Notes: a model not told the origin generated them from the sequence alone. A DNA stretch of 64,000 bases from Gammaproteobacteria bacterium (GCA_965222615.1 CBDCUI010000009.1:160001-224000); one strand, 5' to 3'. Numbered from the stretch's first letter, positions 4,988 through 49,250 are shown. Numbers and translations: made by a program.

Positions 4988-6331
4988 ATGAGCTTTCCAA
5001 CGCAGGTAAAATACTTAGTTATTGGCGCCGGAATACATGGTCTCAGTACGGCCTATCACTTGGCATTGCAACTCAAAGCAAAAGGACGGGGAAGTGGCGA
5101 AAATATATTAGTTATAGATAAAAATGGCATCGCTTCCGGAGCGTCCGGTATTGCATGTGGTGTAATACGTAACAACTATTTTCAGCCAGCTATGCGTGAG
5201 TTAATGGTACACAGTGTGGAAGTTTGGGAAACCGATCCTGAAACTTATAGCTACTATCCGGTTGGATACATGCAAATCAGTCCTGAAATTATGCATGAAG
5301 ATGTTGCCAGTATCGCAAAACAACAACAAGATATTGGTTATCAATCCGCTTTCATTGAAGGTGAAAATGACTGCATGAAATATATGAGAAGTATTTTCGA
5401 TGATTGGCAGGCCAAAGAGATAACTTCTGTCTTACATGAAAAGCGTGGCGGTTATGCCAACAACACCAAGTCAATGTATGGACTGGCATCTAAGGCTGAG
5501 GCTGAAGGCGTACGAATTATGAGCGGTGTCAAAGTAACTGATTTTCAGCAAGCCAATGGCAGTGACAGTGTTAAAGCAGTAGTAACTAACAAAGGTACAA
5601 TCGAATGTGACTATGTCATCATCGGTGTTGGTCCTTGGGTCAAATCGCTTTGGGAGATGCTGGAATTACCTAAAACGGTCGATGTCAAATTACCGGATGG
5701 CACAATGAATAATGATGTACTTATGTGGGTTTATTGGTCACTACAAGAAGGTACTTTAGGCGTTGATCCAAACATGCAAAAAACAAATGATGGTGATTTT
5801 CCTCCTGTTATCCATGTGGATTCTGCTGCACCGCTTTATTCGGAAAGAGATGGCAAATTGATTACCGATAAGATGTGGGGCATCTATTACAAACCCGATT
5901 TTAATTTTGGTGGTATTCAAGGTGGAGCGGCACCATTTAAAGTGGAGGAAGATCCTGATGTAGTGAAAATTGATCCATATGGCCCCGAATCTCCTCATTA
6001 TGTTGTAGATGAAGACTTTGTTGAGATGTGGGTTTCGGCATTGGCACATTGTCAAAAGCGTTTTGAAGGTACCTTGCCACAATACAAACGAGAACCTTCT
6101 GGAGGCTTGGGTTGTTTTACCCCTGATAATTTTCCTGTTTTCGATGTTTTCAAAGATAACTGCTACATCATCGCAGATTCAAATCATGGCTATAAAATGA
6201 TTGGTGTAGGCAAACTTGTCGCGGAAGAAATTTGCGGTGAAACAAGTAGATTATTGGAGCCATTTCGTTTTTCACGTTATGCCGAAGGTAAACTGCATCC
6301 TATTTCAAACAGTCCATATCCATGGAGTTAA
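4988..6331 (+). CDS. FAD-dependent oxidoreductase, DAO/sarcosine oxidase beta-like family
   Basis: N-terminal GAGIHGLS Rossmann motif, GASGIACGVIR, TPDNFPV, HGYKM. Confidence 0.9.
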   Translation: MSFPTQVKYLVIGAGIHGLSTAYHLALQLKAKGRGSGENILVIDKNGIASGASGIACGVIRNNYFQPAMRELMVHSVEVWETDPETYSYYPVGYMQISPEIMHEDVASIAKQQQDIGYQSAFIEGENDCMKYMRSIFDDWQAKEITSVLHEKRGGYANNTKSMYGLASKAEAEGVRIMSGVKVTDFQQANGSDSVKAVVTNKGTIECDYVIIGVGPWVKSLWEMLELPKTVDVKLPDGTMNNDVLMWVYWSLQEGTLGVDPNMQKTNDGDFPPVIHVDSAAPLYSERDGKLITDKMWGIYYKPDFNFGGIQGGAAPFKVEEDPDVVKIDPYGPESPHYVVDEDFVEMWVSALAHCQKRFEGTLPQYKREPSGGLGCFTPDNFPVFDVFKDNCYIIADSNHGYKMIGVGKLVAEEICGETSRLLEPFRFSRYAEGKLHPISNSPYPWS

Positions 6332-6394
6332 GAAACGTAGTGTTGATTTGCTGATGGTCAATATAAAAAAGTATAAAAAGAGGAGCTCTAGAAA

Positions 6395-7870
6395 ATGGCA
6401 ACAGATTTAGAAAAACATGTAAATGCCGATGGACGAAGCGATCTAGTTAAACAAGTTCGTGACAAAATAAATTCATTAGGTGTTAAGTACATATATTTTC
6501 AATTCGTATCCGTTACCGGTCGTATTGTTGGCAAAGGAATTCCTGCAGATCATTGGGAGCGAATTGCAGAACGAGGATTTCAGTTAGTCTATGGTTCTAC
6601 CGCTAATCTCTATCTTGATCGTCATGGCAGCTATATAGGCTACGGGCCCGAGGCATCAGAACTGGTCGGCATTCCAGATCCAGAAACGTTCTGTCAGCTT
6701 CCATGGGATAAACGTATTGGGCGTGTCTTTTGCACATGTTTTCGCAATCGTGAAGAACAAGAAAATCCCGGAGCTCATTTAACTTCAGATTGCCGCGGTA
6801 ATCTTCGCATCATCCACGATGAATTCAAGGCAAAACATGATGGTTTACACATGCGTATGGGTACCGAGCCCGAGATGATGTGGCTGAAGAAAGACGAAAA
6901 TGGTCAACTAGATGGCGGCGTGACTAAACCAAATTGTTATCACATTGATCAGTTTGAAGAACTACGACCGGCTTCCATAAAAGTCATCGAATATGCGGAA
7001 CAAATGGGCTACGACATGATTCAAGGTGATCATGAGGATGCACCAGGACAACTTGAATTAAACTGGATGTTTGATGATGTGATGCGTAATGCAGATCGTT
7101 TAACTACCTACCGACAAATCTGTGCACAAGTTGCTCGTGAACAAAATTTAGTAGCTTGTTTTATGACGAAACCCTTTATGGGTGTTTCGGCTTCAGGTTG
7201 TCACCACAATGTATCTTTATGGAAAGGTGGTAAATCTGTAGTGAACTCATTACATCAAGACCCAATGGGTGGGATGGAAGATGTATTCAGTTATCTACAA
7301 GGTGGCGACAACACCTTTATGCCCGATCCCAAAATTGATGAGCGTAAGCCGGGGCCGATTGGTCTGCAATGTATCGGTGGTGTCATGCAACATTTGCAAG
7401 CACTTACGGCAATTGGTTCTTCTACGGTTAACTCTTATCGGCGTTTATGGGATACCGGTTTTTGGGCTCCCGTATTCGCTGACTGGGGTTTTCAAAATCG
7501 TACTTGTGGTTTGCGTGTTTCTGCACCAGGTAGATTTGAATATCGCTCTGTCGATTCTATGGTGAATCCTTACTTGATGGGTGCCGCCTTACTCAAGGCA
7601 TTTGATGATGGCATTACAAATGATTTAGACCCAGGTGATCCAGAAGAACGCAATATTTACGAGGCAATAAAAGAAGGTAAGGATGTGAAAAGACTACCGA
7701 TGTCCCTAGGGGAGGCGTTAGAGGCATTGGATAAGGATGAGGTAATCAAATCTTCAATGCCCGATGAAATGTATAAGGTATTTACTCATTATAAAAATGA
7801 TGAGTGGGAGCGATTTAATCATACCGTGACTAATTGGGATGTTGAGACCTATCTAGATTATTTACCATAA
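6395..7870 (+). CDS. Glutamine synthetase-like gamma-glutamylamide synthetase (divergent GmaS paralogue)
   Basis: GTEPEM, DHEDAPGQLE, FMTKPF, SGCHHN, NSYRRL, NRT..LRV, EYRSVD...NPYL. Confidence 0.85.
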   Translation: MATDLEKHVNADGRSDLVKQVRDKINSLGVKYIYFQFVSVTGRIVGKGIPADHWERIAERGFQLVYGSTANLYLDRHGSYIGYGPEASELVGIPDPETFCQLPWDKRIGRVFCTCFRNREEQENPGAHLTSDCRGNLRIIHDEFKAKHDGLHMRMGTEPEMMWLKKDENGQLDGGVTKPNCYHIDQFEELRPASIKVIEYAEQMGYDMIQGDHEDAPGQLELNWMFDDVMRNADRLTTYRQICAQVAREQNLVACFMTKPFMGVSASGCHHNVSLWKGGKSVVNSLHQDPMGGMEDVFSYLQGGDNTFMPDPKIDERKPGPIGLQCIGGVMQHLQALTAIGSSTVNSYRRLWDTGFWAPVFADWGFQNRTCGLRVSAPGRFEYRSVDSMVNPYLMGAALLKAFDDGITNDLDPGDPEERNIYEAIKEGKDVKRLPMSLGEALEALDKDEVIKSSMPDEMYKVFTHYKNDEWERFNHTVTNWDVETYLDYLP

Positions 7871-7891
7871 ATTTAACAGGAGAAATTTAAA

Positions 7892-8827
7892 ATGTGTGGA
7901 ATAGCTGGACTTATCTGGAAAGGTAAGAATTCGGACATCGGTTCGGAGATGACTTCCATGCTTCAAGCTTTGAAACATCGGGGCCCAGACTCAACTGGTT
8001 TTGCGCTGTATGGAAATGCAAACCAGAATGAATATGTGATGCGATTTGTAACTGCAGAACAAGAAGATATGGAAAAGGGCTTCGATATTCATGCGGAAGT
8101 TGAAGCACGCGAGGAAGCAGTAGAGGCACGACTTAAAGAGTCGGGGGCTACGCTTAATGAACAACATGCTGCAACAGAGTATTCACATCGATATAGATTT
8201 AGTTTCGATGGTGATTTACGCCGTCTTATTGATTACATAGAAGATGTAGATGGTGTAGAAGTCCTTTCAGTTGGAAATGCTTTGGAGTTAATAAAAGATC
8301 TTGGTGATGCGAGTACTGTATCGGATCAATATAACTTGAAAGGATTTCAAGGCACGCATGGTATTGGACATACTCGCATGGCAACTGAATCGGATGTAGA
8401 TATCCGCTCTGCGCACCCATACTGGGCCTATCCATTTTCCGATGTTGCGGTTGTTCATAATGGGCAGTTGACCAATTACTGGACTAACCGTCGTGCACTT
8501 GAACGCCGTGGGCACCGCTTTATGTCAAACTGTGATTCTGAGTTAATCGCTGTGTATCTCGCGGATCGCATCGATCAGGGTGATGATTTAAACGAAGCCA
8601 TGGATCGTTCCATTAGTTATTTAGATGGTGTGTTTTCCTATTTAGTGGCCACTAGTGATCAACTTGGCATGGCGAAAGACACCATGGCGGCAAAACCCAT
8701 GGTGATTTACGAGGGTGATGAATTTGTAGGATTGGCATCTGAAGAAATTGCAATTCGAAGTATTTTCCCACGTGAAATTGATACTTTTGATCCATATGAA
8801 GGGGAGGTTCGGGTATGGCAAGCGTAA
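7892..8827 (+). CDS. Class II glutamine amidotransferase (MgsA-like)
   Basis: N-terminal MCGIAG nucleophile, HRGPDS, GHTRMATES, VHNG, DSE. Confidence 0.9.
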   Translation: MCGIAGLIWKGKNSDIGSEMTSMLQALKHRGPDSTGFALYGNANQNEYVMRFVTAEQEDMEKGFDIHAEVEAREEAVEARLKESGATLNEQHAATEYSHRYRFSFDGDLRRLIDYIEDVDGVEVLSVGNALELIKDLGDASTVSDQYNLKGFQGTHGIGHTRMATESDVDIRSAHPYWAYPFSDVAVVHNGQLTNYWTNRRALERRGHRFMSNCDSELIAVYLADRIDQGDDLNEAMDRSISYLDGVFSYLVATSDQLGMAKDTMAAKPMVIYEGDEFVGLASEEIAIRSIFPREIDTFDPYEGEVRVWQA

Positions 8828-9660
8828 GCAAAACACATAAATCTCATGATATGGGAATGCACGCCGAGCAATTGGCGGGCCGAACTCAACAGATGTATTT
8901 TTCGCCTACCGCTGAGGAAAATTTTGTCCATGCCTATGCCTATGATGTGGACTTTGACAAAGCCACGGAATTTGATTGTGCTGAAATGACGAGTACAGAA
9001 ATCAATATCAAGATTCGTGAACTCATGAAACAAGGCTATGGGACGATCACGATCAAAAATCCTATGGGCAAACATGCCTTAGGTGTAGGCATACTCAATC
9101 GACTCAATCTGAATTTTGAAGGTAGCTTAGGTTATTTTGCCTGTGGACTAATTGATGGGCCCAATGTTCGCATTAATGGTCGTGTGGGTTGGTCGTGTGC
9201 CGAAAACATGCTTGCAGGTACAGTGGTGATTGAAAAAAATGCAGGTTCAACTTTTGGTGCCGCGATTCGTGGCGGGGATTTGATTTGTAAAGGCAGCGTA
9301 GGTTCACGTACTGGGATCGATCAAAAGGGTGGAACCATTATTGTTGGTGGAGATACAGGGGCATTTTCTGGGTTCATGATGCAGCGCGGTCGCATGATTA
9401 TTTTGGGGGATGCAAGTGAAAACCTTGGTGATTCAATGTATGACGGTACGATTTATATTGCCGGTAAAGCGAAAAGTTTAGGCGTGGATGCGGTAGAAGC
9501 CGAGTTAACTGAATTGGATGTTCAATACTTAAAAGGCAAATTAGCACTTTACCAGATGGAAGCGCCAAATGGTGTAGAGAATATCACCAAGATTGAATCA
9601 GGCAAGCAGTTGTGGAACTACGACAACCTCGAACCCACCGAGAAGAAACTGGTGCTTTAA
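8815..9660 (+). CDS. GXGXG / GltB C-terminal domain protein (MgsB-like)
   Basis: Gly-rich beta-helix repeats, GGTIIVGG, LGDSMYDGTIY. Confidence 0.88.
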   Translation: MASVSKTHKSHDMGMHAEQLAGRTQQMYFSPTAEENFVHAYAYDVDFDKATEFDCAEMTSTEINIKIRELMKQGYGTITIKNPMGKHALGVGILNRLNLNFEGSLGYFACGLIDGPNVRINGRVGWSCAENMLAGTVVIEKNAGSTFGAAIRGGDLICKGSVGSRTGIDQKGGTIIVGGDTGAFSGFMMQRGRMIILGDASENLGDSMYDGTIYIAGKAKSLGVDAVEAELTELDVQYLKGKLALYQMEAPNGVENITKIESGKQLWNYDNLEPTEKKLVL

Positions 9661-9688
9661 TAAGTTTAATAATATGAGGTAAACAAAA

Positions 9689-11035
9689 ATGTCTTCAGTA
9701 AAAGACGAAGCTAAAAAATATCACCTTGGTAAAAGCTTCATATTTCCGCCCGAGGTAATCAATGACATTCATGTAAAGTCGGAGTTGGGCCGCTATCGTA
9801 TGCGCGGCTTTTCAATATTTAAAAAAATTCCAACTTGGGATGATCTAACGTTTATGCCAGGTACTTTGACACGATTTGTAATTGAGGGTTACCGTGAAAA
9901 ATGTACCACTGAAACCATCATTGGACCCCGCGCCAAACGTCCACTGGTTTTGGACATCCCTATTTATATTACTGGAATGAGCTTTGGTGCTTTGAGTTAT
10001 GAAGCAAAGACAGCACTCGCTCGTGGTGCCACCATGGCGGGAACCGCAACCTGCTCTGGTGAAGGCGGCATGATTCCTGATGAGCGCCGCTATTCTGAAA
10101 AGTGGTTCTATCAATGTATTCAATCTCGCTACGGTTTCAATCCACAACACTTACGTCTTGCGGATGGCGTAGAGTTTTTTATTGGGCAAGGCTGCAAAGT
10201 AGGTTTGGGCGGACACTTAATGGGGCAGAAGGTTACTGACCAAGTCGCCGAGATGCGCTCACTGCCTGCAGGAATTGATCAACGTTCACCCGCGCGACAC
10301 CCAGACTGGTTGGGTCCAGATGACTTAGCCATCAAGATTCAAGAAATTCGTGAGGCAACGGATTGGCAAATTCCAATACAGTTAAAATTAGGTGCAGCAC
10401 GAGTGTATGACGATGTACGCATGGCAGCGAAAACGGATCCTGATTCAATTTATATCGACGGTATGGAAGGCGGCACCGGGGCCGGGCCTCATCTGGCAAC
10501 GGAAGATACTGGAGTGCCGGGCATCGCAGCAATACGCCAGGCGCGTCGCGCGATTCAAGACGTAGGTATGGAGGGCAAGATATCTCTAGTGTATGCCGGA
10601 GGTATTCGCAATGGTGCGGATGTCGCCAAAGCCATTGCTTTAGGTGCTGATGCCATTGCGATTGGTCACTCCGCCATGATGGCGTTGAATTGTAATAAGG
10701 ATATTCCTGAAGCCGATTATGAAGAAGAAATGGGTGTGGAAGCGGGGGCTTGTTACCATTGCCATACCGGTCGTTGCCCTGTAGGGGTCGCGACACAAGA
10801 TCCAATATTGCGTGCGCGTTTGAACCCAGATGATGCCGCAGTTCGTGTCTATAATTTCTTACATACACTGGCAATTGAAGCGCAGCTATTTGCACGTGCT
10901 TGTGGCAAGACCAACATTCATTCTTTAGAACCTGAAGATTTGGCAGCCTTAACTATGGAAGCCTCGGCCTGTGCACAAGTACCGATTGCAGGAACACAAC
11001 ACACGGTTGGCCGTCCTGACATGACACGTTTTTAG
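9689..11035 (+). CDS. FMN-binding glutamate synthase family protein (MgsC-like) with Fe-S Cys motif
   Basis: GMSFGALS, SGEGG, GQGCKVGLGG, SPARHPD, IDGMEGGTGA, GGIRNGADVAKAIALGAD, CYHCHTGRCPVGVATQD. Confidence 0.9.
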   Translation: MSSVKDEAKKYHLGKSFIFPPEVINDIHVKSELGRYRMRGFSIFKKIPTWDDLTFMPGTLTRFVIEGYREKCTTETIIGPRAKRPLVLDIPIYITGMSFGALSYEAKTALARGATMAGTATCSGEGGMIPDERRYSEKWFYQCIQSRYGFNPQHLRLADGVEFFIGQGCKVGLGGHLMGQKVTDQVAEMRSLPAGIDQRSPARHPDWLGPDDLAIKIQEIREATDWQIPIQLKLGAARVYDDVRMAAKTDPDSIYIDGMEGGTGAGPHLATEDTGVPGIAAIRQARRAIQDVGMEGKISLVYAGGIRNGADVAKAIALGADAIAIGHSAMMALNCNKDIPEADYEEEMGVEAGACYHCHTGRCPVGVATQDPILRARLNPDDAAVRVYNFLHTLAIEAQLFARACGKTNIHSLEPEDLAALTMEASACAQVPIAGTQHTVGRPDMTRF

Positions 11036-11044
11036 GAGAACATC

Positions 11045-11434
11045 ATGAGTAAAAAAGATATTGACCGCTTTTTAGAGACCGATGAGCTCAGTGAAGAGCG
11101 TGAAAAAATGATCGGTCAACATATCGGTTATCGATATGATGTAAATCTCGTACCCGACTTAACTAAACTAACTCCTTTCCTAAAAAAATATATTGAAATT
11201 ATGGGTTGGAGTGATCTTAACTGGTTGGAAGACGTTCATATGGGCTATGAAGAAGGCCGTGCAGCGGTGTTCGATCGCAATATCAATGGTTGGGTTACCG
11301 TGCCAGAGGATATGGAGCTTCCAGATAATCAGCAGGAACGCGATATGATCGCAAGAGAACTATTAGTCAAGTTTCAAATGTCGCCAAATCATCCGATGGT
11401 CGATTTACGCAAGGCCTATGAAAAATTTAATTAA
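11045..11434 (+). CDS. Hypothetical protein, last gene of module A
   Basis: 129 aa; AGGAG RBS overlapping the stop codon of the upstream gene. Confidence 0.8.
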   Translation: MSKKDIDRFLETDELSEEREKMIGQHIGYRYDVNLVPDLTKLTPFLKKYIEIMGWSDLNWLEDVHMGYEEGRAAVFDRNINGWVTVPEDMELPDNQQERDMIARELLVKFQMSPNHPMVDLRKAYEKFN

Positions 11435-11559: not shown

Positions 11560-12156
11560 ATGGATACGGACCAGAATAGTGTTGAGCAACATATGCGTGA
11601 TCATTTTATTGGCTGGCAATGTCGCATTCGTCAGTATGCAGTTCGCAATGCAGGCGGGCGGCCTTCTGAAGGCATGCGGGCTACTGTGTTCATCGACGAT
11701 GAAGCAATTGCCAAGATCATCGTATTAATTAATAAAAAAGATTTGGCAAAGTTAGTTACCGAATTCAGTTTTATGTACAAAAAAAACCAAGACCCTGCTG
11801 TACGGCGTGATTCAATCTTGCGGGTATTGATGGCAGGTTATTTTCAGTATCCTGAAGAGTTTTCAGACAGACTCACAGCCTTATTGTCTGCTAGTCATGA
11901 TCTGACAAAATGTTTGTTAGAAGCTGGAGAGGTCTCACTTTATTTTTATCAGCAGAATCAACAATATCAGATCCCATGTACTGTGCATGCTCTAAAGTCA
12001 AGTGATCACGAATACCAAGCAACTTATTGGCATAACTCGTTATTTAATCCTAATATCCCAACTGATATCCATATTCTTGCTTTTGAGCCAGATTGGTCGA
12101 TTGCAAAGGCAAACCCCTTGCCCAATGCACTCAAGCTTGCATCTAATTTTCAGTGA
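11560..12156 (+). CDS. Hypothetical protein (possibly FMN-binding split-barrel-like)
   Basis: 198 aa ORF, WQCRIRQ and WHNSLFNP motifs; overlaps next gene by 4 nt; fold call is tentative. Confidence 0.65.
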   Translation: MDTDQNSVEQHMRDHFIGWQCRIRQYAVRNAGGRPSEGMRATVFIDDEAIAKIIVLINKKDLAKLVTEFSFMYKKNQDPAVRRDSILRVLMAGYFQYPEEFSDRLTALLSASHDLTKCLLEAGEVSLYFYQQNQQYQIPCTVHALKSSDHEYQATYWHNSLFNPNIPTDIHILAFEPDWSIAKANPLPNALKLASNFQ

Positions 12157-12581
12157 ATTTAACCACTGTTCAACATAAAGACTTCTATACTGGTAGTTGT
12201 TTATGCGGTGCTATTCGCTACCAAGTCAAAGGAAAATTGCGTGATGTGGTGAATTGCCACTGTAGTCTGTGCCGAAAATTTCACGGTCATTTTGGTGCTT
12301 ATACCGCAGCAAAAAGAGAAGATGTTCATATCAACAGTTCCAAAAATAATGATCTACTGGCCTGGTATCAAAGCATGGACAATAAAGCCCGTAGAGGGTT
12401 TTGTGTGATTTGTGGATCAAGCCTATTTTGGGATTTAGAAGGTGCTTCTACTTTGAGTATTGCTGCAGGTAGCCTGGATCAACCTTCGGGTCTAAATACT
12501 ACAACCGATATTTTTGTCGATGACAAAGCCGATTACTATGAACTTGATGAACGCTTAATCCATCTTAGGCAGGGTTTATAA
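12153..12581 (+). CDS. GFA / CENP-V family protein (glutathione-dependent formaldehyde-activating-like)
   Basis: GSCLCG, CHCSLCRK, RGFCVICGS zinc motifs. Confidence 0.9.
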   Translation: MNLTTVQHKDFYTGSCLCGAIRYQVKGKLRDVVNCHCSLCRKFHGHFGAYTAAKREDVHINSSKNNDLLAWYQSMDNKARRGFCVICGSSLFWDLEGASTLSIAAGSLDQPSGLNTTTDIFVDDKADYYELDERLIHLRQGL

Positions 12582-26771: not shown

Positions 26772-28193
26772 ATGACTGACGCATTAGGCTCACTAACGGT
26801 CATCTTTACCGAATTTTACTATTGGGTAACAGTAGTGATCATGTTTCTAATTCATGCCGGATTCATAATGTATGAAGTGGGAGCTTCACGGCATAAGAAT
26901 CATCTGCACACCTTAATGAAGAATGTAATGATCATACCTTTGGTAACCATTACGTTTTTCTTTTTTGGCTGGTGGATTTATTTCGCATTTCCATATGGCC
27001 CAGGGATTATGGGTGGCATCCAAAGTGCTCCGCATGCCACACCCTGGAGCGAATTGATGGGCACCCATATGGGTGGAGCGCCTTTACAAGAAAGCCTAAG
27101 CGCTGATGATACAGCCTTTTGGGCGCGTATAAACGGTGTCTTTTGGGCGGCATTTTTACTTTTTTCTTGGACTGCAGCCTCGATTGTTTCCGGCTCGGTC
27201 ATTGAGCGCATCCAATCAGGTGCCTTCTGGATCTTGGCCGTGCTAATTGGTTCTTTCACATGGATTATTGATGCGGCTTGGGGCTGGCACTGGGATGGCT
27301 GGATGGTGCATAAGCTGGGTTATCACGATGCCTATGCTTCCGGAGTCATTCATGCCATTGCAGGTGGCTTTGCCTTAGGCGTGCTATGTATCTTAGGGCC
27401 GCGCATTGGTAAATTCCGAAAAGATGGTACGCCACGGAATATCAACCCACATAATCCGTGGTTAGTCTGTGTTGGACTATTCCTTATCTATACAGGATTC
27501 TGGGGTTTTTACGCGGCTTGTAATGTACCGATCATAGATTTCTTTGGTGGAGACATGCTGGATGTAGAAGGCAAGACCATGTTTACCGCCACGAATATCT
27601 ATCTTGGTCCCACTACACTGTCGGCTATCACTTTTAATTTCTTGATTTCATTGTCAGGTGGTCTCATGGCGGGCTATATCGTTTCAAGAGGCGATCCTTT
27701 CTGGACGTTTTCTGGCGGTCTTGCAGGAATAATTGCTGCATCTGCGGGAAATGATTTATATCACCCCATGCAAGCATTTATTATTTCAATTGCTGGCGTA
27801 GTAATTATGTATAAAATGCATTACTGGGTTGAGCGTAGATTCAAGATTGATGATGCCGTCGGTGCTGTCGCCGTACACGGTTATGCTGGATTCTTTGGAG
27901 TATTTATTGCCGGCTTCGTGTTATGGGGTTATCCGTCATCACCTTTTGGTGAAGGTTATGCTGTAGTAACTCCATGGGGGCAATTCCTAGGCGCTTGTAT
28001 CATGTTCTTTGTACTAGGATTCTTTCCTGCATTAATTGCTTCTAAGATCCTAGACATGATGGGTTTGCTACGTATACCTAGAGAAATTGAGCTAGCCGGT
28101 CTGGATATTTCTACAGAAATGCTTGCGGATGAAGAGTCTTCAGAACTAGATCGTGGGCTTTTAGAACAAGCTACAAAAGATGGGCTTGTTTAG
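26772..28193 (+). CDS. amt: Ammonium transporter family protein (divergent Amt, candidate methylamine channel)
   Basis: ~11 TM, IVSGSVIER, twin His (SGVIH, VAVHG), LGPRIG, KIDDAVG, E..GLD. Confidence 0.9.
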   Translation: MTDALGSLTVIFTEFYYWVTVVIMFLIHAGFIMYEVGASRHKNHLHTLMKNVMIIPLVTITFFFFGWWIYFAFPYGPGIMGGIQSAPHATPWSELMGTHMGGAPLQESLSADDTAFWARINGVFWAAFLLFSWTAASIVSGSVIERIQSGAFWILAVLIGSFTWIIDAAWGWHWDGWMVHKLGYHDAYASGVIHAIAGGFALGVLCILGPRIGKFRKDGTPRNINPHNPWLVCVGLFLIYTGFWGFYAACNVPIIDFFGGDMLDVEGKTMFTATNIYLGPTTLSAITFNFLISLSGGLMAGYIVSRGDPFWTFSGGLAGIIAASAGNDLYHPMQAFIISIAGVVIMYKMHYWVERRFKIDDAVGAVAVHGYAGFFGVFIAGFVLWGYPSSPFGEGYAVVTPWGQFLGACIMFFVLGFFPALIASKILDMMGLLRIPREIELAGLDISTEMLADEESSELDRGLLEQATKDGLV

Positions 28194-31449: not shown

Positions 31450-32757
31450 TTAACAGTCCAAAACGTTGGTGCGTTCCCAATCGCTCAGGTGGGTGGTGTA
31501 TTCGTTCCACTCTTGCATTTTTAACTTAATAAGTGAATCAACAAGTTCAGTGCCTAATCCTTTTTGAATAATTTTGTTTTTTTCGAGTAAACGTAGAGCA
31601 TCAAGTAAGGTAGTAGGTAACTGTTTGGCGGCTTTAACCTTGTGGCCTTCTTCATACATATTAATATGTAGCGGTTTTCCAGGGTCACGCTTGCTTTCGA
31701 TGCCTTCTAAACCGGCAGCAATTACGCCGGCTTGTAGAAGATAAGGATTGGTAGAACCATCCATTAAACGTAATTCAAACCTGCCAGCATCAGGTACGCG
31801 TATCATATGCGTGCGGTTATTTCCAGAATAAGTAATCGAACTAGGAGACCAAGTTGCACCGGAGGTAGTGCGTGGGGCACTGATACGTTTATAACTGTTT
31901 ACGGTTGGATTAAATACAGCACATAGAGACTGAGCGTGCTGCAAAATACCACCTAAAAAGTTATAGGCAAGCTTAGACAGTCCCAAATCATCGCTTTTAC
32001 TTAAAAATAGATTCTTTTTGCCTGTTTTGTCCCATAGCGAGACGTGAGCATGACATCCATTACCGGTTAAATTTGAGAATGGTTTCGGTGCAAAGGTTGC
32101 ACGTAACCCATGTTGTTCGGCAAGAGTCTTAGTCATGTATTTAAAGAACACATGTCGGTCCGCAGTGACCAAGGCATCGTCATAGTCCCAATTCATTTCA
32201 AATTGACCGTTTGCGTCTTCATGATCGTTTTGATAAGGATTCCAACCAAGTTCAATCATGCAATCACAAATTTCACTTATTAACGGGAAACGGCGCATAA
32301 GCGCTTGCTGGTCATAACAAGGCTTGCTTTGTGTGTCTGCAGAATCGGCTAAAGCATTACCTTCTTGATTGATAAGAAAGTACTCACACTCTACACCGGT
32401 TTTTACGCGATAACCTTTTTTAGTTGCACGTGCTAGTTGTCGCTTCAGTGCAACACGGGGGGAGGCTTCTACTTCTTTGCCGTCCATCCAGAGATCACTG
32501 GCAAGCCAACCAATTTCTGGATTCCACGGTAATTGAATAAGACTGCTTGGATCGGGCACACCAAACATATCTGGATGTGCAGGAGTCATATCTAACCACG
32601 CTGCAAAGCCAGCAAACCCGGCACCATCTTTTTGCATGTCTGCAATGGCTCGTGCTGGGACAAGCTTAGCGCGTAAAACTCCAAACAGATCGACAAAGCT
32701 AACTAGAAAATATTTTATGCCATTATCTTTTGCGACTTTTGCCAAATTTGTAGCCAT
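31450..32757 (-). CDS. gmaS: Gamma-glutamylmethylamide synthetase (GlnT-type)
   Basis: RAKLVP, GAGFAGFAAWLDMTPAHPD, DHEDANGQFEMN, TTSGATWSP, GNNRTHMIR; follows mgsABC. Confidence 0.9.
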   Translation of the reverse strand: MATNLAKVAKDNGIKYFLVSFVDLFGVLRAKLVPARAIADMQKDGAGFAGFAAWLDMTPAHPDMFGVPDPSSLIQLPWNPEIGWLASDLWMDGKEVEASPRVALKRQLARATKKGYRVKTGVECEYFLINQEGNALADSADTQSKPCYDQQALMRRFPLISEICDCMIELGWNPYQNDHEDANGQFEMNWDYDDALVTADRHVFFKYMTKTLAEQHGLRATFAPKPFSNLTGNGCHAHVSLWDKTGKKNLFLSKSDDLGLSKLAYNFLGGILQHAQSLCAVFNPTVNSYKRISAPRTTSGATWSPSSITYSGNNRTHMIRVPDAGRFELRLMDGSTNPYLLQAGVIAAGLEGIESKRDPGKPLHINMYEEGHKVKAAKQLPTTLLDALRLLEKNKIIQKGLGTELVDSLIKLKMQEWNEYTTHLSDWERTNVLDC

Positions 32758-32835
32758 AACTCTTCTCCCATAGACCTTTCTTATTGTTAGTTTTTATATG
32801 AACGTTTGTTTAAGACCTTTCATATCGTTACGTTA

Positions 32836-34188
32836 TTAATATGTGTTGGTGCCAGGTATCCAATCAGTTCCAGCAAGAGGCACTTTTGCCATCGCAGCCG
32901 CTTCAACCGTTAGCGCAACCAAATCTTCTGGTTCCAGATTATGCAAATGCGATTTACCACAGGCTCTAGCCAAAGTTTGTGCTTCCAGCACCATAGTTTG
33001 CAACAAATTTTTTATACGACGGCCTCCTAATTCCGGATCTAAGTTTTTGCCCAATTCCGGGTCTTGTGTTGAGATCCCAGCAGGGCATTTGCCTTCATGA
33101 TAAGCATCATAATAACCGGGGGCTGTACCTAATTTATGGTATTCATTTGTGTATTTGGGACTGTTGCAGCCCAGCGCAAAAAGGGCTGCCATCCCTATTG
33201 ATACAGCATCTGCACCTAATGCCAAGCATTTGGCAACATCGGCTCCATTGCGTATACCGCCCGATACAATGAGTTGGACTTTACGATGCATGCCCATTTC
33301 TTGTAAGGCTTGAGTAGCGATTCGAACTGCGGGCAAGGTTGGGATACCAACATGTTCAATAAATACATCTTGAGTTGCGGCTGTTCCACCTTGCATGCCA
33401 TCAAGTACAACTGCATCTGCACCGGCTTTGACGGCGAGCTGTACATCATATTTAGTTCGTGTCGCGCCGACTTTTATATAAATTGGTTTTTCATAATCCG
33501 TAATCTCACGCAGCTCTTGGATTTTTATTTCCAAATCATCCGGGCCTGTCCAATCTGGATGTCGACAGGCGCTACGCTGATCAACACCTTTTGGTAGAGT
33601 ACGCATTTGTGCTACACGATCACTAATTTTATAGCCAAGTAGCATACCGCCTCCGCCAGGCTTAGCGCCTTGACCGCAAACGACTTCAATTGCATCAGCT
33701 TTACGCAAATCATCTGGGTTCATGCCATAACGCGAAGGCAGCAACTGATAAACAAGTGTCTTAGATGATTTTCTTTCTTCCGGAGTCATGCCACCATCTC
33801 CAGTAGTCGTACTGGTGCCCATCATCGATGCACCTTTACCCAGAGCGTCCTTTGCTTGAGCCGATAGCGCACCAAAGCTCATACCAGCAATAGTAATTGG
33901 GATATCAAGATGCAGTGGTTTTTTTGCATAACGTGTACCAATTACAACATCGGTATCACAACGTTCCCGGTAACCCTCGAGTGGATAACGTGACATACTT
34001 GCACCGAGAAATAATAAGTCATCGAAATGGGGTAGCTGGCGTTTTGCGCCGCCGCCACGGATACTATAAATGCCTTGTGTAGCAGCACGCTGTATTTCAG
34101 CAATTGTATTTCTATCCCAAGTGTAAGATTCTTTCATTGGCGGAAGTTGTTCGCTTTTTACCATTGGATTTAAATCTAAATTTTCCAT
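32836..34188 (-). CDS. mgsC: N-methylglutamate synthase FMN-binding subunit
   Basis: LGASMSRYPLEGYRE, GQGAKPGGGG, RSACRHPDWTGPDDL, ARACGKSHLHNLEPEDL. Confidence 0.9.
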   Translation of the reverse strand: MENLDLNPMVKSEQLPPMKESYTWDRNTIAEIQRAATQGIYSIRGGGAKRQLPHFDDLLFLGASMSRYPLEGYRERCDTDVVIGTRYAKKPLHLDIPITIAGMSFGALSAQAKDALGKGASMMGTSTTTGDGGMTPEERKSSKTLVYQLLPSRYGMNPDDLRKADAIEVVCGQGAKPGGGGMLLGYKISDRVAQMRTLPKGVDQRSACRHPDWTGPDDLEIKIQELREITDYEKPIYIKVGATRTKYDVQLAVKAGADAVVLDGMQGGTAATQDVFIEHVGIPTLPAVRIATQALQEMGMHRKVQLIVSGGIRNGADVAKCLALGADAVSIGMAALFALGCNSPKYTNEYHKLGTAPGYYDAYHEGKCPAGISTQDPELGKNLDPELGGRRIKNLLQTMVLEAQTLARACGKSHLHNLEPEDLVALTVEAAAMAKVPLAGTDWIPGTNTY

Positions 34189-34207
34189 TTTAATACCTTA
34201 TTTACAT

Positions 34208-34903
34208 TTATTCCGAAGGTAGATGGGCATCATCAATCTTAAAGTTATATAAGTTTCTTGCGGAGCCATAGCGCTTGAAATTTTTTGGATTAGCATTAAC
34301 TCCTGCTTGATGTAAAAGTTCGGTAAGCTTGTTTAGATGTTCGTGCTTCATTCCCTTTTCGATACAATCCATACCGAGGCTTTTAACTTTTCCCTGTACA
34401 AAAATTTGTACTTCATATATTGAATCACCTAAAGAGTCACCGGCATCACCACAAATTACTAAACTTCCTAATTGCCCCATGAATGCCGACATATGTCCAA
34501 CGGATCCTCCCACTACGATATCGACTCCTTTCATTGAAATACCACAACGCGCGGCAGCATCTCCTTCAATGACAAGTAGGCCTCCATGCCCGGTAGCACC
34601 AGCATATTGTGAGGCATTTCCTTTTATAGTGACTTGGCCTGACATGATATTTTCTGCGACACCGGCACCGGCATTGCCCGTGACGGTTATATTGGCTTGT
34701 TTATTCATGCCACCACAATAGTAACCTACATGACCGTCAATCTTTACATCGATAGGTGAATCGAGGCCTACTGCAATAGCATGTTTGCCACTTGGATTGT
34801 TAACTAAAAACTCGGCTGATTTAAGTTTGCCATTGTGTAAATGGAGTTGTTCATTGAGCTCACGAACTTCAGTACTTGCAAGGTCATACATTTTTTTCTT
34901 CAC
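34208..34903 (-). CDS. mgsB: N-methylglutamate synthase GXGXG subunit
   Basis: GHVGYYCGGMN, GVAENIMSG, ARCGISMKG, GDSIYE, YGSARNLYNF. Confidence 0.9.
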   Translation of the reverse strand: MKKKMYDLASTEVRELNEQLHLHNGKLKSAEFLVNNPSGKHAIAVGLDSPIDVKIDGHVGYYCGGMNKQANITVTGNAGAGVAENIMSGQVTIKGNASQYAGATGHGGLLVIEGDAAARCGISMKGVDIVVGGSVGHMSAFMGQLGSLVICGDAGDSLGDSIYEVQIFVQGKVKSLGMDCIEKGMKHEHLNKLTELLHQAGVNANPKNFKRYGSARNLYNFKIDDAHLPSE

Positions 34904-35375
34904 AATTATCGATCTCGTTAAGCTTATCTTGTCTAGAAAGTTCTACAGCCCAAACTGCTGCTTGTAGGCGGGAATGTAGTTTTAACTTAGACAATATGTT
35001 TTTAACATGTACTTTAACAGTGCAGTAGCTAATTCCTAATTTAAGCGCAATCACTTTATTGCTTAGACCTGATGCGAGAAGCGTTAAGACTTGTTTTTCT
35101 CTAGTCGTTAAACCAGCGTCATTAATTTTTTGTTCACTTGGATTTAATAATGGGTCGAGATTATCGGAATTGACTGGCTCTTTTAATTGCGAGTTTGTAG
35201 TTATTTCTAGTCGATCTGAATATTTGTCAGATAATGGTGATACAATAAATAACGTTTCCATATTAGAAAGTTGGTTGAGCATTTGTTTTCCACTTTCACT
35301 ATGTGGATTGATTTCTAGCGCCATCACATTATCCAATTTATCTACCAAGTTTTTAATAATCTCTATATCTTCCAT
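34884..35375 (-). CDS. LuxR-type HTH regulator lacking a receiver domain, inside the mgs operon
   Basis: LTTREKQVL.LLASGLSNKVIA.KL.IS..TVKVHVKNILSKL. Confidence 0.88.
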   Translation of the reverse strand: MEDIEIIKNLVDKLDNVMALEINPHSESGKQMLNQLSNMETLFIVSPLSDKYSDRLEITTNSQLKEPVNSDNLDPLLNPSEQKINDAGLTTREKQVLTLLASGLSNKVIALKLGISYCTVKVHVKNILSKLKLHSRLQAAVWAVELSRQDKLNEIDNCEEKNV

Positions 35376-35378
35376 ATG

Positions 35379-45304: not shown

Positions 45305-46006
45305 TTACAACTGCAATAATGCAGTGTGTCCAACTGGAGCACCATTAAATTCTATAAAAGCATCTTTTAAACAAGACCACATATAATCTGTAGAAGCGCT
45401 GTCAAATAGAAAGTGAAATGCAGGGATCTTTGCAAAGTCGTTACGAATAATGATGGCGTTCATGCGAGCAACTGAAGTTTGCGCAATAGTGCCGTTAGGG
45501 AATTTATTTATGCGTAGATCTACACCACAAAGCTTGGCAAACATTGCATCTGCATATTGACCGGTAACAAGTAACCAGGCAGATGAATTGAAACGTGGCA
45601 CAGAATAACAATCCCTTGGTTGGTCATGCCGGTATTGTTCCTCTAATGCTTTGCATTGGTCTTGTTCATTAAGTGGATTGTTCAAAACTAATATTTCAGT
45701 GTCTGCAAGTCGTCCAGCCAAGGCGCCATTGTTTTGTTGATAGGCTTGATTATTCTGTTCACCAATATTTAAATTTTGTGTCCTGGCCCAAGCGATTGCT
45801 CCGCGACCTTTGAAGCCTGTTCTAGGCAATGCGCTTAAGTCGATTAAACCTAGTTGTTTTGCTTGGGAGATTTCTTCTTCAATAGTCTTGCCATAATGAT
45901 CAACCAGTGTTGCATCCATATACTTTTTAAACTGTGCGCCCGCTGCTAAAAGCGTTCGATAATGTGGGCTACGTACAAGGTTATCTGTAGGCTGTATTGT
46001 TGGCAT
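45305..46006 (-). CDS. mgdD: N-methylglutamate dehydrogenase subunit D (sarcosine oxidase gamma-like)
   Basis: DLSALPRTGFKG, MFAKLCGVDLR...F..G.IAQTSVAR. Confidence 0.82.
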   Translation of the reverse strand: MPTIQPTDNLVRSPHYRTLLAAGAQFKKYMDATLVDHYGKTIEEEISQAKQLGLIDLSALPRTGFKGRGAIAWARTQNLNIGEQNNQAYQQNNGALAGRLADTEILVLNNPLNEQDQCKALEEQYRHDQPRDCYSVPRFNSSAWLLVTGQYADAMFAKLCGVDLRINKFPNGTIAQTSVARMNAIIIRNDFAKIPAFHFLFDSASTDYMWSCLKDAFIEFNGAPVGHTALLQL

Positions 46007-46008
46007 CG

Positions 46009-48939: not shown

Positions 48940-48963
48940 TATAAGTTACTAATTTTTAAACAA

Positions 48964-49239: not shown

Positions 49240-49250
49240 ATTTGTTCTCT

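What the first reader, a model, noticed from the sequence alone, without database searches (positions are those of the whole stretch)
4988..11434. Second, divergent GmaS-MgsABC-like module with its own flavoprotein: candidate glutamylation pathway for dimethylamine or another amine
Seen: a tight operon of FAD oxidoreductase, GS-like ligase, Ntn amidotransferase, GXGXG protein, FMN subunit and a 129-aa unknown. It coexists with a canonical mgsABC-gmaS at 31450-36278 but is only distantly similar (for example GFQLVYGSTANLY replaces GAGFAGFAAWLD, and there is a long insertion after SGCHHN). Known: TMADH yields dimethylamine, the NMG route accepts methylamine, and the bridging enzymes (DMA dehydrogenase, DmmABC) are not in this window. 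Inference: module A may make gamma-glutamyl-dimethylamide, then N,N-dimethylglutamate, which the single-subunit flavoprotein demethylates to NMG. That would be an O2-independent DMA route I do not know to be described.
Basis: partly seen in the sequence, partly recalled or inferred. Interest (0 to 1): 0.9.

Follow-up and report, generated by a model that had tools for sequence, protein, structure and literature searches.

The report
Candidate missing dimethylamine pathway operon
This is a real, very widely conserved six-gene sister of the bacterial methylamine-on-glutamate pathway that travels with the enzymes that make dimethylamine, so it is the best candidate for the still unknown dimethylamine-breakdown step of SAR11 and many other ocean bacteria.

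Summary
Window 4988-11434 (+) holds six tightly spaced genes: a sarcosine-oxidase-fold flavoprotein, a GS-like ligase, an Ntn amidotransferase, a GXGXG protein, an FMN GltB-like subunit and a 129-aa orphan. They are paralogous (28-50% identity) to the canonical gmaS-mgsABC at 31450-36278.

The cassette is not special to this genome. It is SAR11_1304-1309 of Pelagibacter, and it is 65-90% identical across Alpha- and Gammaproteobacteria. I found no assigned function in print.

In evenly drawn genome samples the ligase occurs in 23 of 28 genomes that encode a dimethylamine-producing enzyme (Tdm or TMADH). It occurs in 3 of 358 others, and in 2 of 22 genomes that have GmaS but no such enzyme. Twenty-one of those 23 lack DmmA.

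This genome has one TMADH. I found no DMADH paralogue, Tdm or DmmABC.

So the link to dimethylamine is well supported by comparative genomics. The proposed chemistry (gamma-glutamyl-dimethylamide, then N,N-dimethylglutamate, then N-methylglutamate) is inference only. O2-independence is not shown.

Earlier notes of this scan reached the same reading on other genomes.

Verdict: new variant of a known kind, high interest, untested biochemically.

The parts
4988..6331 (+). A_DAO: single-subunit FAD amine oxidoreductase of the sarcosine-oxidase fold (447 aa); proposed N-demethylase of N,N-dimethylglutamate
   Evidence: Pfam DAO 114.4 bits. It falls far below the soxB and soxA_mon cut-offs. The AF2 model (pLDDT 76, pTM 0.82) matches SoxB 1vrq_B at TM 0.70, and also MSOX, DMGO/DMGDH and MTOX. 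It lies directly upstream of the ligase in 47 of 64 loci with room. It corresponds to SAR11_1304.
6395..7870 (+). A_GS: GS-like ATP-dependent gamma-glutamyl-amine ligase (491 aa); proposed gamma-glutamyl-dimethylamide synthetase
   Evidence: Gln-synt_C 266.7 bits. TIGR03105 310 bits, below the 469.6 cut-off. 28% identical to the window's GmaS. All 7 RhGmaS pocket residues are kept, with flanking residues changed to I, G, L and L. Orthologues are 65-90% identical in 570 genome contigs stretches.
7892..8827 (+). A_GAT: class-II (Ntn, Cys after Met1) amidotransferase subunit, MgsA-like (311 aa)
   Evidence: GATase_7/6. 32% identical to MgsA, with the MCGI start shared.
8815..9660 (+). A_GXG: GXGXG subunit, MgsB-like (281 aa)
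   Evidence: PF01493 63 bits. 34% identical to MgsB. Mean column identity 79% over 13 orthologues.
9689..11035 (+). A_FMN: FMN glutamate-synthase-domain subunit, MgsC-like (448 aa), with a four-Cys motif
   Evidence: PF01645 301 bits. 50% identical to MgsC. Mean column identity 91% over 13 orthologues. The motif C-x19-C-x2-C-x4-C-P is present in 66 of 66 orthologues.
11045..11434 (+). u129: 129-aa protein of no known family, sixth gene of the cassette
   Evidence: No Pfam or NCBIfam hit. Mean column identity 81% over 13 orthologues. Colinear after the FMN gene in 65 of 67 loci. The AF2 model has pLDDT 74.5 and no PDB neighbour at E<=0.001.
11560..12156 (+). u198: 198-aa unknown, a frequent neighbour of the cassette
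   Evidence: No family hit. 33-45% identical homologues lie beside the cassette in 14 of 80 loci and in G215, G069, G020, G357 and G336.
12153..12581 (+). GFA-family (glutathione-dependent formaldehyde-activating enzyme family) protein; its start overlaps the end of u198 by 4 bp
   Evidence: PF04828 80 bits. The same u198-GFA tail follows the cassette in G215. A GFA gene lies upstream of the DAO gene in L030.
26772..28193 (+). Amt-family transporter (context): its orthologue lies next to the cassette in many genomes
   Evidence: PF00909 186 bits. An orthologue of at least 55% identity is present in 46 of 80 loci.
31450..36278 (-). Module B (context): canonical gmaS-mgsC-mgsB-(LuxR ORF)-mgsA
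45305..50492 (-). mgdABCD-type N-methylglutamate dehydrogenase genes (context); proposed sink for the N-methylglutamate made by module A
   Evidence: soxA family 877 bits, soxB family 493 bits, GCV_T gamma-like subunit.
54788..57025 (+). Trimethylamine dehydrogenase (context): the source of dimethylamine in this genome
   Evidence: 1272.7 bits to PDB 1djn TMADH; Cys30, Tyr60, Ser74 and Trp105 are aligned identically. It is the only homologue in the genome. FeS protein, LRV protein and EtfBA follow at 57182-62569.

Best explanation
Module A is a glutamate-tethered catabolic route for dimethylamine (DMA). It fills the step between the DMA-forming enzymes (TMADH here, Tdm in most other carriers) and the N-methylglutamate (NMG) dehydrogenase. 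The proposed steps are all inferred. (1) The GS-like ligase uses ATP to join DMA to the gamma-carboxyl of glutamate, giving gamma-glutamyl-dimethylamide. (2) The three-part GOGAT-like synthase, probably with the 129-aa protein, hydrolyses this amide at the Ntn-Cys site. It passes DMA to the FMN site and reductively adds it to 2-oxoglutarate, giving N,N-dimethylglutamate. As in NMG synthase there is no GltD-type reductase partner. (3) The single-subunit sarcosine-oxidase-fold flavoprotein removes one methyl as formaldehyde, which the adjacent GFA-family protein would trap, leaving NMG. (4) MgdABCD converts NMG to glutamate and methylene-THF. What is shown: the genes, their families and folds, their extreme conservation, and their phyletic and physical linkage to DMA-producing enzymes in genomes where I found no DmmA. 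I put about 0.55 on 'the module is needed for DMA breakdown' and about 0.35-0.4 on the exact intermediates.
For: Own genome: one TMADH with TMADH-type residues, no second homologue, no DmmA or DmmB, only an orphan DUF3445 protein beside a RES-Xre pair, and no Tdm.

Gammaproteobacteria sample: the A ligase is in 11 of 251 genomes. All 11 have Tdm (8) or TMADH (3). Eleven of the 13 Tdm/TMADH genomes have it, against 0 of 237 others. Among genomes with GmaS over its cut-off, it is in 0 of 11 without Tdm/TMADH and in 10 of 12 with one. Nine of the 11 carriers lack DmmA.

Alphaproteobacteria sample: the A ligase is in 15 of 136 genomes. It is in 12 of 15 Tdm/TMADH-like genomes; the other three are two DmmA carriers and one fragmented assembly. 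It is in 3 of 121 others. No genome has both A and DmmA.

Five closed Arenicellales MAGs that carry the cassette: 0 of 5 have DmmA.

Linkage: tdm lies within 10 kb in 46 of 80 loci, and DmmA/B/C in 0 of 80. In SAR11 the order is tmoW-like permease, tdm, DAO, ligase, synthase, u129, amt, (mgsABC), gmaS. In G215 the TMADH-Etf block lies 15 kb from the cassette, which there also carries the u198-GFA tail.

The flavoprotein's nearest folds all oxidise N-methyl or N,N-dimethyl amino acids.

Literature: all SAR11 lack dmmDABC (PMC5520151, passages). HTCC1062 nevertheless grows on TMAO as sole nitrogen source, and the authors postulate an unknown Dmm isoenzyme (PMC8918994, section 12). Canonical RhGmaS has Km 27 uM for MMA but 16 mM for DMA (PMC7948447, Table 1 passage), so a separate ligase would be needed.
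Against: There is no biochemical or genetic test.

All seven amine-pocket residues named for RhGmaS are conserved in the A ligase, so nothing in the sequence marks a secondary amine.

Making a tertiary amine at a GOGAT-type site has no precedent that I know of.

Three alphaproteobacterial carriers (G336, G347, G357) show no Tdm or TMADH.

Two gammaproteobacterial carriers (G020, G215) also have DmmA.

Seventeen of 64 loci lack the flavoprotein directly upstream of the ligase.

L050 and G347 have the ligase beside SoxB/SoxA-like genes with no synthase.

In N-limited HTCC1062 the flavoprotein rose strongly while the ligase and FMN subunit fell to about 0.67-fold, so they are not strictly co-regulated (PMC3870248, tables).

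Lidbury et al. state that there is no evidence that SAR11 oxidises DMA (PMC5520151, discussion).

Related genomes are not independent, and the thresholds for 'TMADH-like' in the alpha sample were set after seeing the scores.
Confidence: 0.55

Rival explanations
1. Module A is a second, isofunctional methylamine route. The ligase makes gamma-glutamylmethylamide, the synthase makes NMG and the flavoprotein is a monomeric NMG oxidase. The two modules would differ only in affinity or regulation.
For: All seven RhGmaS pocket residues are kept. The FMN subunit is 50% identical to MgsC. Some SAR11 genomes (G257, G260) have gmaS but only the A-type FMN subunit, so the A synthase probably accepts gamma-glutamylmethylamide there.
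Against: The module is in only 2 of 22 sampled genomes that have GmaS but no Tdm/TMADH (0 of 11 gamma, 2 of 11 alpha). It is in 23 of 28 genomes with Tdm/TMADH. This rival leaves the DMA step empty in 21 of those 23 carriers, although HTCC1062 grows on TMAO nitrogen (PMC8918994). Streamlined SAR11 genomes keep both ligases side by side.
Confidence: 0.15
2. The flavoprotein alone is the DMA enzyme: it oxidises free DMA to methylamine plus formaldehyde. The A ligase and synthase then capture the methylamine locally.
For: It has the same phyletic link to Tdm/TMADH. The flavoprotein is regulated apart from the ligase in SAR11 and was already suspected of being an amine demethylase (PMC3870248, PMC5520151 passages).
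Against: Its structural neighbours all act on N-alkyl amino acids that carry a carboxylate, not on free small amines. Seventeen of 64 loci keep ligase, synthase and u129 without the flavoprotein directly upstream. This rival again needs two ligases for one substrate.
Confidence: 0.1
3. The module degrades some other amine (for example ethylamine, an alkanolamine or an N-methylated osmolyte product) to an aldehyde through a gamma-glutamyl amide and an N-alkylglutamate. Its place in methylated-amine islands would be only a matter of shared regulation.
For: A 53%-identical ligase on a Paracoccus sp. TOH plasmid sits in a Puu-like set with aldehyde dehydrogenases and gamma-glutamyl hydrolases. Three alphaproteobacterial carriers have no Tdm or TMADH.
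Against: The association with Tdm/TMADH is tight in two classes, the genes are adjacent to tdm in 46 of 80 loci, and no aldehyde dehydrogenase is part of the conserved cassette.
Confidence: 0.08
4. The module is an alternative ammonium-assimilating GS/GOGAT pair.
For: The family memberships fit. SAR11 annotations call the genes glnT and gltB2 (PMC3870248).
Against: There is no GltD-type reductase, unlike the third module in this genome. A flavin amine oxidoreductase is coupled to the cassette. The proteins are less abundant under N limitation in SAR11 (PMC3870248). The distribution is tied to Tdm/TMADH.
Confidence: 0.03

Closest known systems
N-methylglutamate pathway: GmaS + NMG synthase MgsABC + NMG dehydrogenase MgdABCD (Methyloversatilis universalis, Methylocella silvestris, Ruegeria pomeroyi; present in this window at 31450-36278 and 45305-50492)
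   Same: It has the same four protein families in the same logic: an ATP-dependent GS-like ligase, an Ntn amidotransferase, a GXGXG subunit and an FMN GltB-like subunit, with no GltD-type reductase. A flavoprotein of the sarcosine-oxidase superfamily follows. The seven GmaS pocket residues are kept.
   Different: It is only 28/32/34/50% identical to module B. The ligase falls below the TIGR03105 cut-off and has a remodelled N-terminal loop and an insertion of about 30 residues. The heterotetrameric dehydrogenase is replaced by a single-subunit flavoprotein. There is an extra 129-aa subunit-like protein of no known family. The distribution follows Tdm/TMADH rather than GmaS.
Dimethylamine monooxygenase DmmDABC (Ruegeria pomeroyi, Methylocella silvestris; reference copy on the Paracoccus aminovorans plasmid)
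   Same: It has the same proposed place in the pathway (DMA downstream of Tdm), sits in the same kind of gene island, and has a near-complementary distribution (21 of 23 Tdm/TMADH carriers of module A lack DmmA).
   Different: There is no homology. Dmm is an O2- and NADPH-dependent haem/FeS enzyme that gives free methylamine. Module A would spend ATP and glutamate and give NMG without free methylamine.
Dimethylamine dehydrogenase / trimethylamine dehydrogenase (Hyphomicrobium X, Methylophilus W3A1)
   Same: It would be the partner of TMADH in an O2-independent route, and it sits near TMADH and Etf genes here and in G215 and L030.
   Different: There is no homology. This genome has a single TMADH-type enzyme. 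That DMADH carries Gln/Thr/Phe at positions 60/74/105 is recalled from memory, not taken from a call.
Gamma-glutamylation pathways for amines (PuuA-D for putrescine; Ipu for isopropylamine; recalled from memory)
   Same: A GS-like ligase activates an organic amine as a gamma-glutamyl amide. A 53%-identical relative of the A ligase sits in such a set on a Paracoccus plasmid.
   Different: Those pathways oxidise the tethered amine and end with a gamma-glutamyl hydrolase. Module A instead has the GOGAT-like transfer enzyme.
Monomeric sarcosine oxidase, SoxB, and dimethylglycine oxidase/dehydrogenase
   Same: They share the fold (TM 0.61-0.70) and the chemistry class: flavin-dependent oxidative N-demethylation of N-methyl and N,N-dimethyl amino acids.
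   Different: Identity is 15-21%, the protein falls far below the family cut-offs, it has no folate-binding domain, and its substrate is unknown.

Membership tests
GmaS / type III glutamate-ammonia ligase (TIGR03105) | Score at or above the curated cut-off of 469.6 bits | tested here: not met
   The A ligase scores 310.1 bits in two stretches; the window's GmaS scores 675.8 bits.
GmaS / type III glutamate-ammonia ligase (TIGR03105) | Amine-pocket residues of RhGmaS (Tyr147, Gln175, Asp177, Glu179, Glu186, Asn188, Lys30') | tested here: met
   All seven columns are identical in 81 A and 30 B sequences (residues from PMC7948447 section 7). The flanking residues differ: Y to I, N to G, F to L, M to L.
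GmaS / type III glutamate-ammonia ligase (TIGR03105) | Preference for monomethylamine | not testable with these tools
   This needs an enzyme assay.
NMG synthase MgsABC (GOGAT-like without a GltD partner) | Three separate subunits: Ntn-Cys amidotransferase, GXGXG and FMN Glu_synthase domain, with no GltD-type reductase adjacent | tested here: met
   Pfam gives all three domains. The MCGI N-terminus is present. No Pyr_redox/Fer4_20 gene is in the cassette, in contrast to the third module in this genome.
NMG synthase MgsABC (GOGAT-like without a GltD partner) | Orthology to characterised MgsABC | tested here: inconclusive
   It is 32/34/50% identical to the window's own MgsABC and forms a separate, highly conserved group. 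I built no tree with characterised enzymes.
Sarcosine oxidase beta family (TIGR01373), monomeric sarcosine oxidase (TIGR01377), MTOX (NF008425) | Score at or above the curated cut-offs (529, 480 and 257 bits) | tested here: not met
   The scores are 64.8, 54.1 and 56.2 bits.
DAO superfamily (PF01266), two-domain FAD amine oxidoreductase fold | Pfam gathering score and fold similarity | tested here: met
   114.4 bits against a cut-off of 27.9. Foldseek gives probability 1.00 and TM 0.70 to 1vrq_B.
Dimethylamine monooxygenase DmmDABC | DmmA family domain (NF041259) with PDR-type DmmB and DUF3445 DmmC in one cluster | tested here: not met
   There is no DmmA or DmmB in G000, and the only DUF3445 protein is an orphan. 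A DmmD-like GcvT protein (44.5% identical) lies at C9:228434-229525.
True glutamate synthase (GOGAT) | An NAD(P)H or ferredoxin electron input (GltD-type partner) together with the Fe-S cluster motif | tested here: inconclusive
   There is no GltD partner, but a four-Cys motif is conserved in 66 of 66 A-type FMN subunits.

The most novel reading that the evidence does not exclude
The cassette is the long-sought dimethylamine pathway of SAR11, SUP05, SAR324, Arenicellales and other Dmm-less marine bacteria. It would work by chemistry not yet described: a GS-family ligase that acylates a secondary amine, a GOGAT-like enzyme (with a new 129-aa subunit and a retained Fe-S site) that makes a tertiary N,N-dimethyl amino acid, and a new sarcosine-oxidase-fold demethylase that feeds N-methylglutamate straight to Mgd without ever releasing methylamine. 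If so, the supposed oceanic 'DMA bottleneck' would not be a genetic gap.
Probability: 0.38. Interest if true: 0.9.

Novelty: new variant of a known kind. Interest (0 to 1): 0.8.

Why it matters
Methylated amines are a sizeable marine nitrogen and carbon pool and are precursors of aerosols. Lidbury et al. 2017 reported that dmmDABC is absent from SAR11 and many other abundant bacteria. They interpreted this as a metabolic bottleneck that explains DMA-rich marine aerosols.

In 2022 HTCC1062 was shown to grow on TMAO as sole nitrogen source, with the DMA enzyme still unknown. If this cassette does that step, several things follow:
- The gap in the TMA/TMAO pathway of the most abundant ocean heterotrophs would close.
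- Gene-based estimates of marine DMA turnover would change.
- The community would gain a new functional marker.
- New chemistry would be added to the GS and GOGAT families.

The open question becomes directly testable with a handful of enzyme assays and one mutant.

Tried and rejected
**Complex prediction.** I folded the 129-aa protein with the FMN and GXGXG subunits. The verdict was 'no answer', because a control with the FMN chain replaced scored nearly as high. The job says nothing for or against binding.

**Fusions of the 129-aa protein.** A search for longer proteins found 36 proteins. Many carry the Glu_synthase domain. Of the four I read, three contain out-of-frame junk, so they are frameshifted gene calls. 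Only P0134 looks in frame. I do not count this as Rosetta-stone evidence.

**Identity of the two unknown proteins.**
- Protein Atlas searches for the 129-aa and 198-aa proteins gave no usable relatives.
- A fold search with the 129-aa model found no PDB match at E<=0.001.

**Signals in the DNA.**
- The promoter and terminator scan of 4300-13600 found fewer sites than shuffled sequence.
- Rfam gave no match at gathering score anywhere in the window.

**PF11927 as a Dmm marker.** The one hit in the genome is an orphan beside a RES-Xre pair, not a dmm cluster.

**DMFase lead.** I scanned 10 of the 66 unexplained ORFs of at least 550 aa in my 80 loci with Pfam and saw none. I also read part of the P. 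aminovorans plasmid and found no DMFase there. The lead remains untested.

**Ligase specificity from sequence.** The published pocket residues do not discriminate between the A and B ligases.

**Literature.** Seven searches found no paper that assigns a function to this cassette, or that names gamma-glutamyl-dimethylamide or bacterial N,N-dimethylglutamate. Subscription journals are not covered.


Full report
**1. What is there**

Window 4988-11434 (+) carries six ORFs with gaps of 63, 21, -13, 28 and 9 bp.

| ORF | Length | Family evidence |
|---|---|---|
| 4988-6331 | 447 aa | PF01266 DAO flavoprotein |
| 6395-7870 | 491 aa | GS-like ligase (Gln-synt_C 267 bits) |
| 7892-8827 | 311 aa | class-II amidotransferase starting MCGI |
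| 8815-9660 | 281 aa | GXGXG protein |
| 9689-11035 | 448 aa | Glu_synthase FMN subunit (301 bits) |
| 11045-11434 | 129 aa | no Pfam or NCBIfam match |

- The canonical module at 31450-36278 (-) has a ligase well above the TIGR03105 cut-off (675.8 against 469.6 bits). The module-A ligase scores 310.1 bits.
- Pairwise identity of A to B is 28, 32, 34 and 50%.
- Two more genes follow closely: a 198-aa unknown (11560-12156) and a GFA-family protein (12153-12581).
- The rest of the window is a methylated-amine/C1 island. It holds an Amt transporter, hutG-like, class-I amidotransferase, mgdABCD-like, fhs and folD genes, then TMADH with an FeS protein, an LRV protein and EtfBA.
- No promoter, terminator or Rfam signal stood out.

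**2. The cassette is old, widespread and extremely conserved**

- The ligase has thousands of relatives. The best 120 are at least 81% identical and include SAR324 and gammaproteobacterial MAGs.
- In one-genome-per-species contigs, 577 stretches matched a search pattern and 570 of them encode a relative. The best 80 were kept.
- Of the 67 kept loci with room downstream, 65 have ligase, amidotransferase, GXGXG, FMN subunit and 129-aa gene in that order.
- Of the 64 loci with room on both sides, 47 have the flavoprotein gene directly upstream on the same strand.
- Mean column identity across alpha- and gammaproteobacterial orthologues is 91% (FMN subunit), 81% (129-aa protein), 79% (GXGXG) and 77% (flavoprotein).
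- In SAR11 the cassette is followed by an Amt gene. After that comes either mgsABC-gmaS or gmaS alone.
- Passages of Smith et al. 2013 (PMC3870248) and Sun et al. 2011 (PMC3160333) identify these genes in HTCC1062:
  - SAR11_1305 is glnT, SAR11_1308 is gltB2 and SAR11_1310 is amt.
  - SAR11_1313-1316 are glxBCD-glnT.
- Neither paper assigns the cassette a function. Smith et al. explicitly leave open how DMA is metabolised.

**3. Is the DMA step really missing here?**

- The genome (3.10 Mb, 9 contigs, 99.8% complete) has a single TMADH homologue.
  - It scores 1272.7 bits to M. methylotrophus TMADH (PDB 1djn).
  - Cys30, Tyr60, Ser74 and Trp105 align identically.
  - That DMADH differs at positions 60, 74 and 105 is my recollection, not a call result.
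- I took a bona fide tdm-dmmDABC-mgdABCD island from a Paracoccus aminovorans plasmid as reference. With it, tblastn found the following in this genome:
  - no DmmA and no DmmB;
  - only a 26%-identical DUF3445 protein;
  - no full-length Tdm.
- The DUF3445 protein stands beside a RES-Xre pair.
- The DmmA model NF041259 also finds nothing in the genome.
- A DmmD-like GcvT protein (44.5% identical) and a second class-I amidotransferase lie 4.4 kb past the window's end.

**4. Phyletic test**

I sampled 250 Gammaproteobacteria drawn evenly, plus this genome. One genome was not scored in four of the five searches.

| Feature | Genomes |
|---|---|
| A ligase (E<=1e-150, 60-82% identity) | 11 of 251 |
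| Tdm (E<=1e-120) | 10 of 250 (8 over the curated cut-off, one in two pieces) |
| TMADH | 3 of 250 |
| DmmA | 5 of 250 |
| GmaS over cut-off | 23 of 250 |

- All 11 carriers of the ligase have Tdm (8) or TMADH (3).
- Eleven of the 13 Tdm/TMADH genomes carry the ligase, against 0 of 237 others.
- The two Tdm genomes without it are G199 (which has DmmA) and G116 (which has neither).
- Among GmaS genomes, the ligase is in 0 of 11 without Tdm/TMADH and in 10 of 12 with one.
- Nine of the 11 carriers lack DmmA. G020 and G215 have both, with DmmA beside gmaS and the cassette beside TMADH.

I then sampled 136 Alphaproteobacteria, centred on a Pelagibacter genome.

| Feature | Genomes |
|---|---|
| A ligase | 15 of 136 |
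| Tdm | 11 of 136 |
| DmmA | 3 of 136 |
| GmaS | 23 of 136 |
| TMADH query at E<=1e-150 | 14 of 136 |

- Of the 14 TMADH-query hits I kept five genomes with at least 50% identity and more than 700 bits (G277, G288, G308, G341, G363).
- I dropped the 42-46% hits because solved histamine dehydrogenases score at that level. This threshold was chosen after seeing the scores.
- The ligase is in 12 of 15 Tdm/TMADH-like genomes. The other three are G353 and G365 (both DmmA) and the fragmented G341.
- It is in 3 of 121 others (G336, G347, G357).
- No genome has both the ligase and DmmA.
- The ligase is in 2 of 11 genomes that have GmaS but no Tdm/TMADH.
- Five closed Arenicellales MAGs with the cassette have no DmmA (0 of 5).
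- Fisher tests give P of about 1e-17 and 4e-12 (the gamma table there has 238 rather than 237 non-carriers). Related genomes are not independent, so these values overstate the case.

**5. Physical linkage**

- A Tdm gene (50-64% identical to the reference) lies within 10 kb of the ligase in 46 of 80 loci. I dropped three weak GcvT-like rows of 28-34% identity. DmmA, DmmB and DmmC appear in 0 of 80 loci.
- In SAR11 the order on one strand is: a fused TmoW-like ABC permease, tdm, flavoprotein, ligase, synthase, 129-aa gene, amt, (mgsABC), gmaS.
- G069 has tdm about 1.6 kb from the ligase. G215 repeats this window's layout: TMADH-FeS-LRV-EtfBA, then the cassette with the u198-GFA tail. In G020 mgdA and mgdC follow the 129-aa gene.

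**6. What the proteins say**

- The flavoprotein model (pLDDT 76, pTM 0.82) matches heterotetrameric SoxB best (TM 0.70). The next matches are L-proline dehydrogenase, MSOX, dimethylglycine oxidase/dehydrogenase, MTOX and a flavin opine dehydrogenase (sequence profile). All of these oxidise the C-N bond of N-alkyl amino acids.
- The flavoprotein has no folate domain, which fits a neighbouring GFA-family gene. Oxidase versus dehydrogenase cannot be told from the sequence, so 'O2-independent' is not established.
- The A ligase keeps all seven pocket residues named for RhGmaS (PMC7948447, section 7). It replaces the flanking Tyr, Asn, Phe and Met with Ile, Gly, Leu and Leu, and it remodels the N-terminal loop. 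This is compatible with a roomier pocket but does not prove one.
- RhGmaS itself has Km 27 uM for methylamine and 16 mM for DMA (same paper, Table 1).
- The A-type FMN subunit keeps a four-Cys motif in 66 of 66 orthologues. The window's MgsC has lost two of the four Cys, while some B-type subunits keep them.
- The 129-aa protein has no known family or fold.

**7. Reading**

- Tdm and TMADH share one product, DMA.
- The cassette follows those two enzymes and does not follow methylamine use as such.
- It sits where dmm sits in Roseobacter and Paracoccus islands, and it is largely complementary to DmmA.
- HTCC1062 grows, weakly, on TMAO as sole nitrogen source, and the authors invoke an unknown Dmm isoenzyme (PMC8918994, section 12).
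- Two SAR11 genomes (G257, G260) keep gmaS but have only the A-type FMN subunit. This suggests that the A synthase can also take gamma-glutamylmethylamide. It fits two ligases of different amine specificity feeding one synthase.

The rivals, in order of weight, are:
- a second methylamine route;
- a free-DMA dehydrogenase plus local capture of the methylamine;
- another amine altogether;
- ammonium assimilation.

Points against my reading:
- There is no experiment.
- The pocket residues are conserved.
- Tertiary-amine synthesis by a GOGAT-like enzyme has no precedent that I know of.
- Three carriers have no Tdm or TMADH, and two carriers also have DmmA.
- Some variants lack the flavoprotein or the synthase (L050, G347).
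- In N-limited SAR11 the flavoprotein rose while the ligase and FMN subunit fell to about 0.67-fold (PMC3870248).

**8. Novelty**

- Seven literature searches found no functional assignment and no mention of the proposed intermediates in bacteria. Subscription-only papers and supplements were not visible.
- After I had formed this reading, a look-up showed that this scan had met the same cassette on at least eight other genomes, and that follow-up agents proposed the same DMA role. Those notes are not independent evidence.
- One note adds a DMFase-type amidase next to the cassette, which I could not verify.
- I file the finding as a new variant of a known kind (the N-methylglutamate pathway). 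It is of high interest because it makes a recognised open question directly testable.

Noticed in passing
window 34884-35375 (-): A 163-aa ORF with a LuxR/NarL-type HTH (E 1.5e-21 to the NarL C-terminus) is inserted between mgsA and mgsB of the canonical module. In SAR11 loci the two genes abut.
   Followed up: partly
G000:C9:94922-100304 (L085 6923-12305): There is a third GOGAT-like set in this genome: an amidotransferase, a fused GXGXG+FMN protein (655 aa) and an 842-aa GltD-like Fer4_20/Pyr_redox_2 protein, beside a Peripla_BP_5 binding protein. The same type lies next to gmaS, PuuR and Amt genes in L020 and G357.
   Followed up: partly
window 10680-10790 region of 9689-11035; loci: The A-type FMN subunit keeps a C-x19-C-x2-C-x4-C-P motif in 66 of 66 orthologues. 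The window's MgsC has only two of these Cys, while five of 12 B-type sequences keep all four. This suggests an Fe-S site that is variably lost in NMG synthases.
   Followed up: partly
G257 (L067, HIMB1485) and G260 (L070): These SAR11 genomes have gmaS after the Amt gene but no B-type mgsC anywhere. Only the A-type FMN subunit is found.
   Followed up: partly
L050 10001-16000; L093 13837-19988 (G347): In this variant the A-type ligase is followed directly by SoxB/SoxA-like genes, with no amidotransferase, GXGXG or FMN genes nearby.
   Followed up: no
L084 4422-6377 (G000:C9:228422-230377): A DmmD-like GcvT protein (44.5% identical to P. aminovorans DmmD) and a class-I amidotransferase/Peptidase_C26 protein lie just beyond the window's end, although DmmABC is absent. 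A cytochrome P450 gene lies 4 kb further on.
   Followed up: partly
L082 7442-10453 (G000:C8): An orphan HODM_asu-like (DUF3445) protein lies next to a RES-Xre toxin-antitoxin pair and is unrelated to any dmm cluster.
   Followed up: yes
L086 12523-18690 (Paracoccus sp. TOH plasmid p2): A 53%-identical relative of the A ligase sits with a second GS, two aldehyde dehydrogenases, a class-I amidotransferase and a gamma-glutamyl-GABA hydrolase family gene. This is a Puu-like set with no GOGAT-like genes.
   Followed up: no
G308: An alphaproteobacterial genome has two A-type ligases (78% and 56% identical) and three TMADH/DMADH-like paralogues. The second ligase lies within 8-22 kb of two of them.
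   Followed up: no
window 2930-4689 (+): A 478-aa protein of no family (weak RnfD-like hit, E 0.0035) and a CBU_0592-family membrane protein lie just upstream of the cassette. Neither is found beside the cassette in the 80 loci.
   Followed up: partly
window 42466-45289 (-): A 683-aa molybdopterin oxidoreductase (formate-dehydrogenase-alpha-like, below cut-off) and a B3_4-domain protein lie directly after the mgd genes.
   Followed up: no
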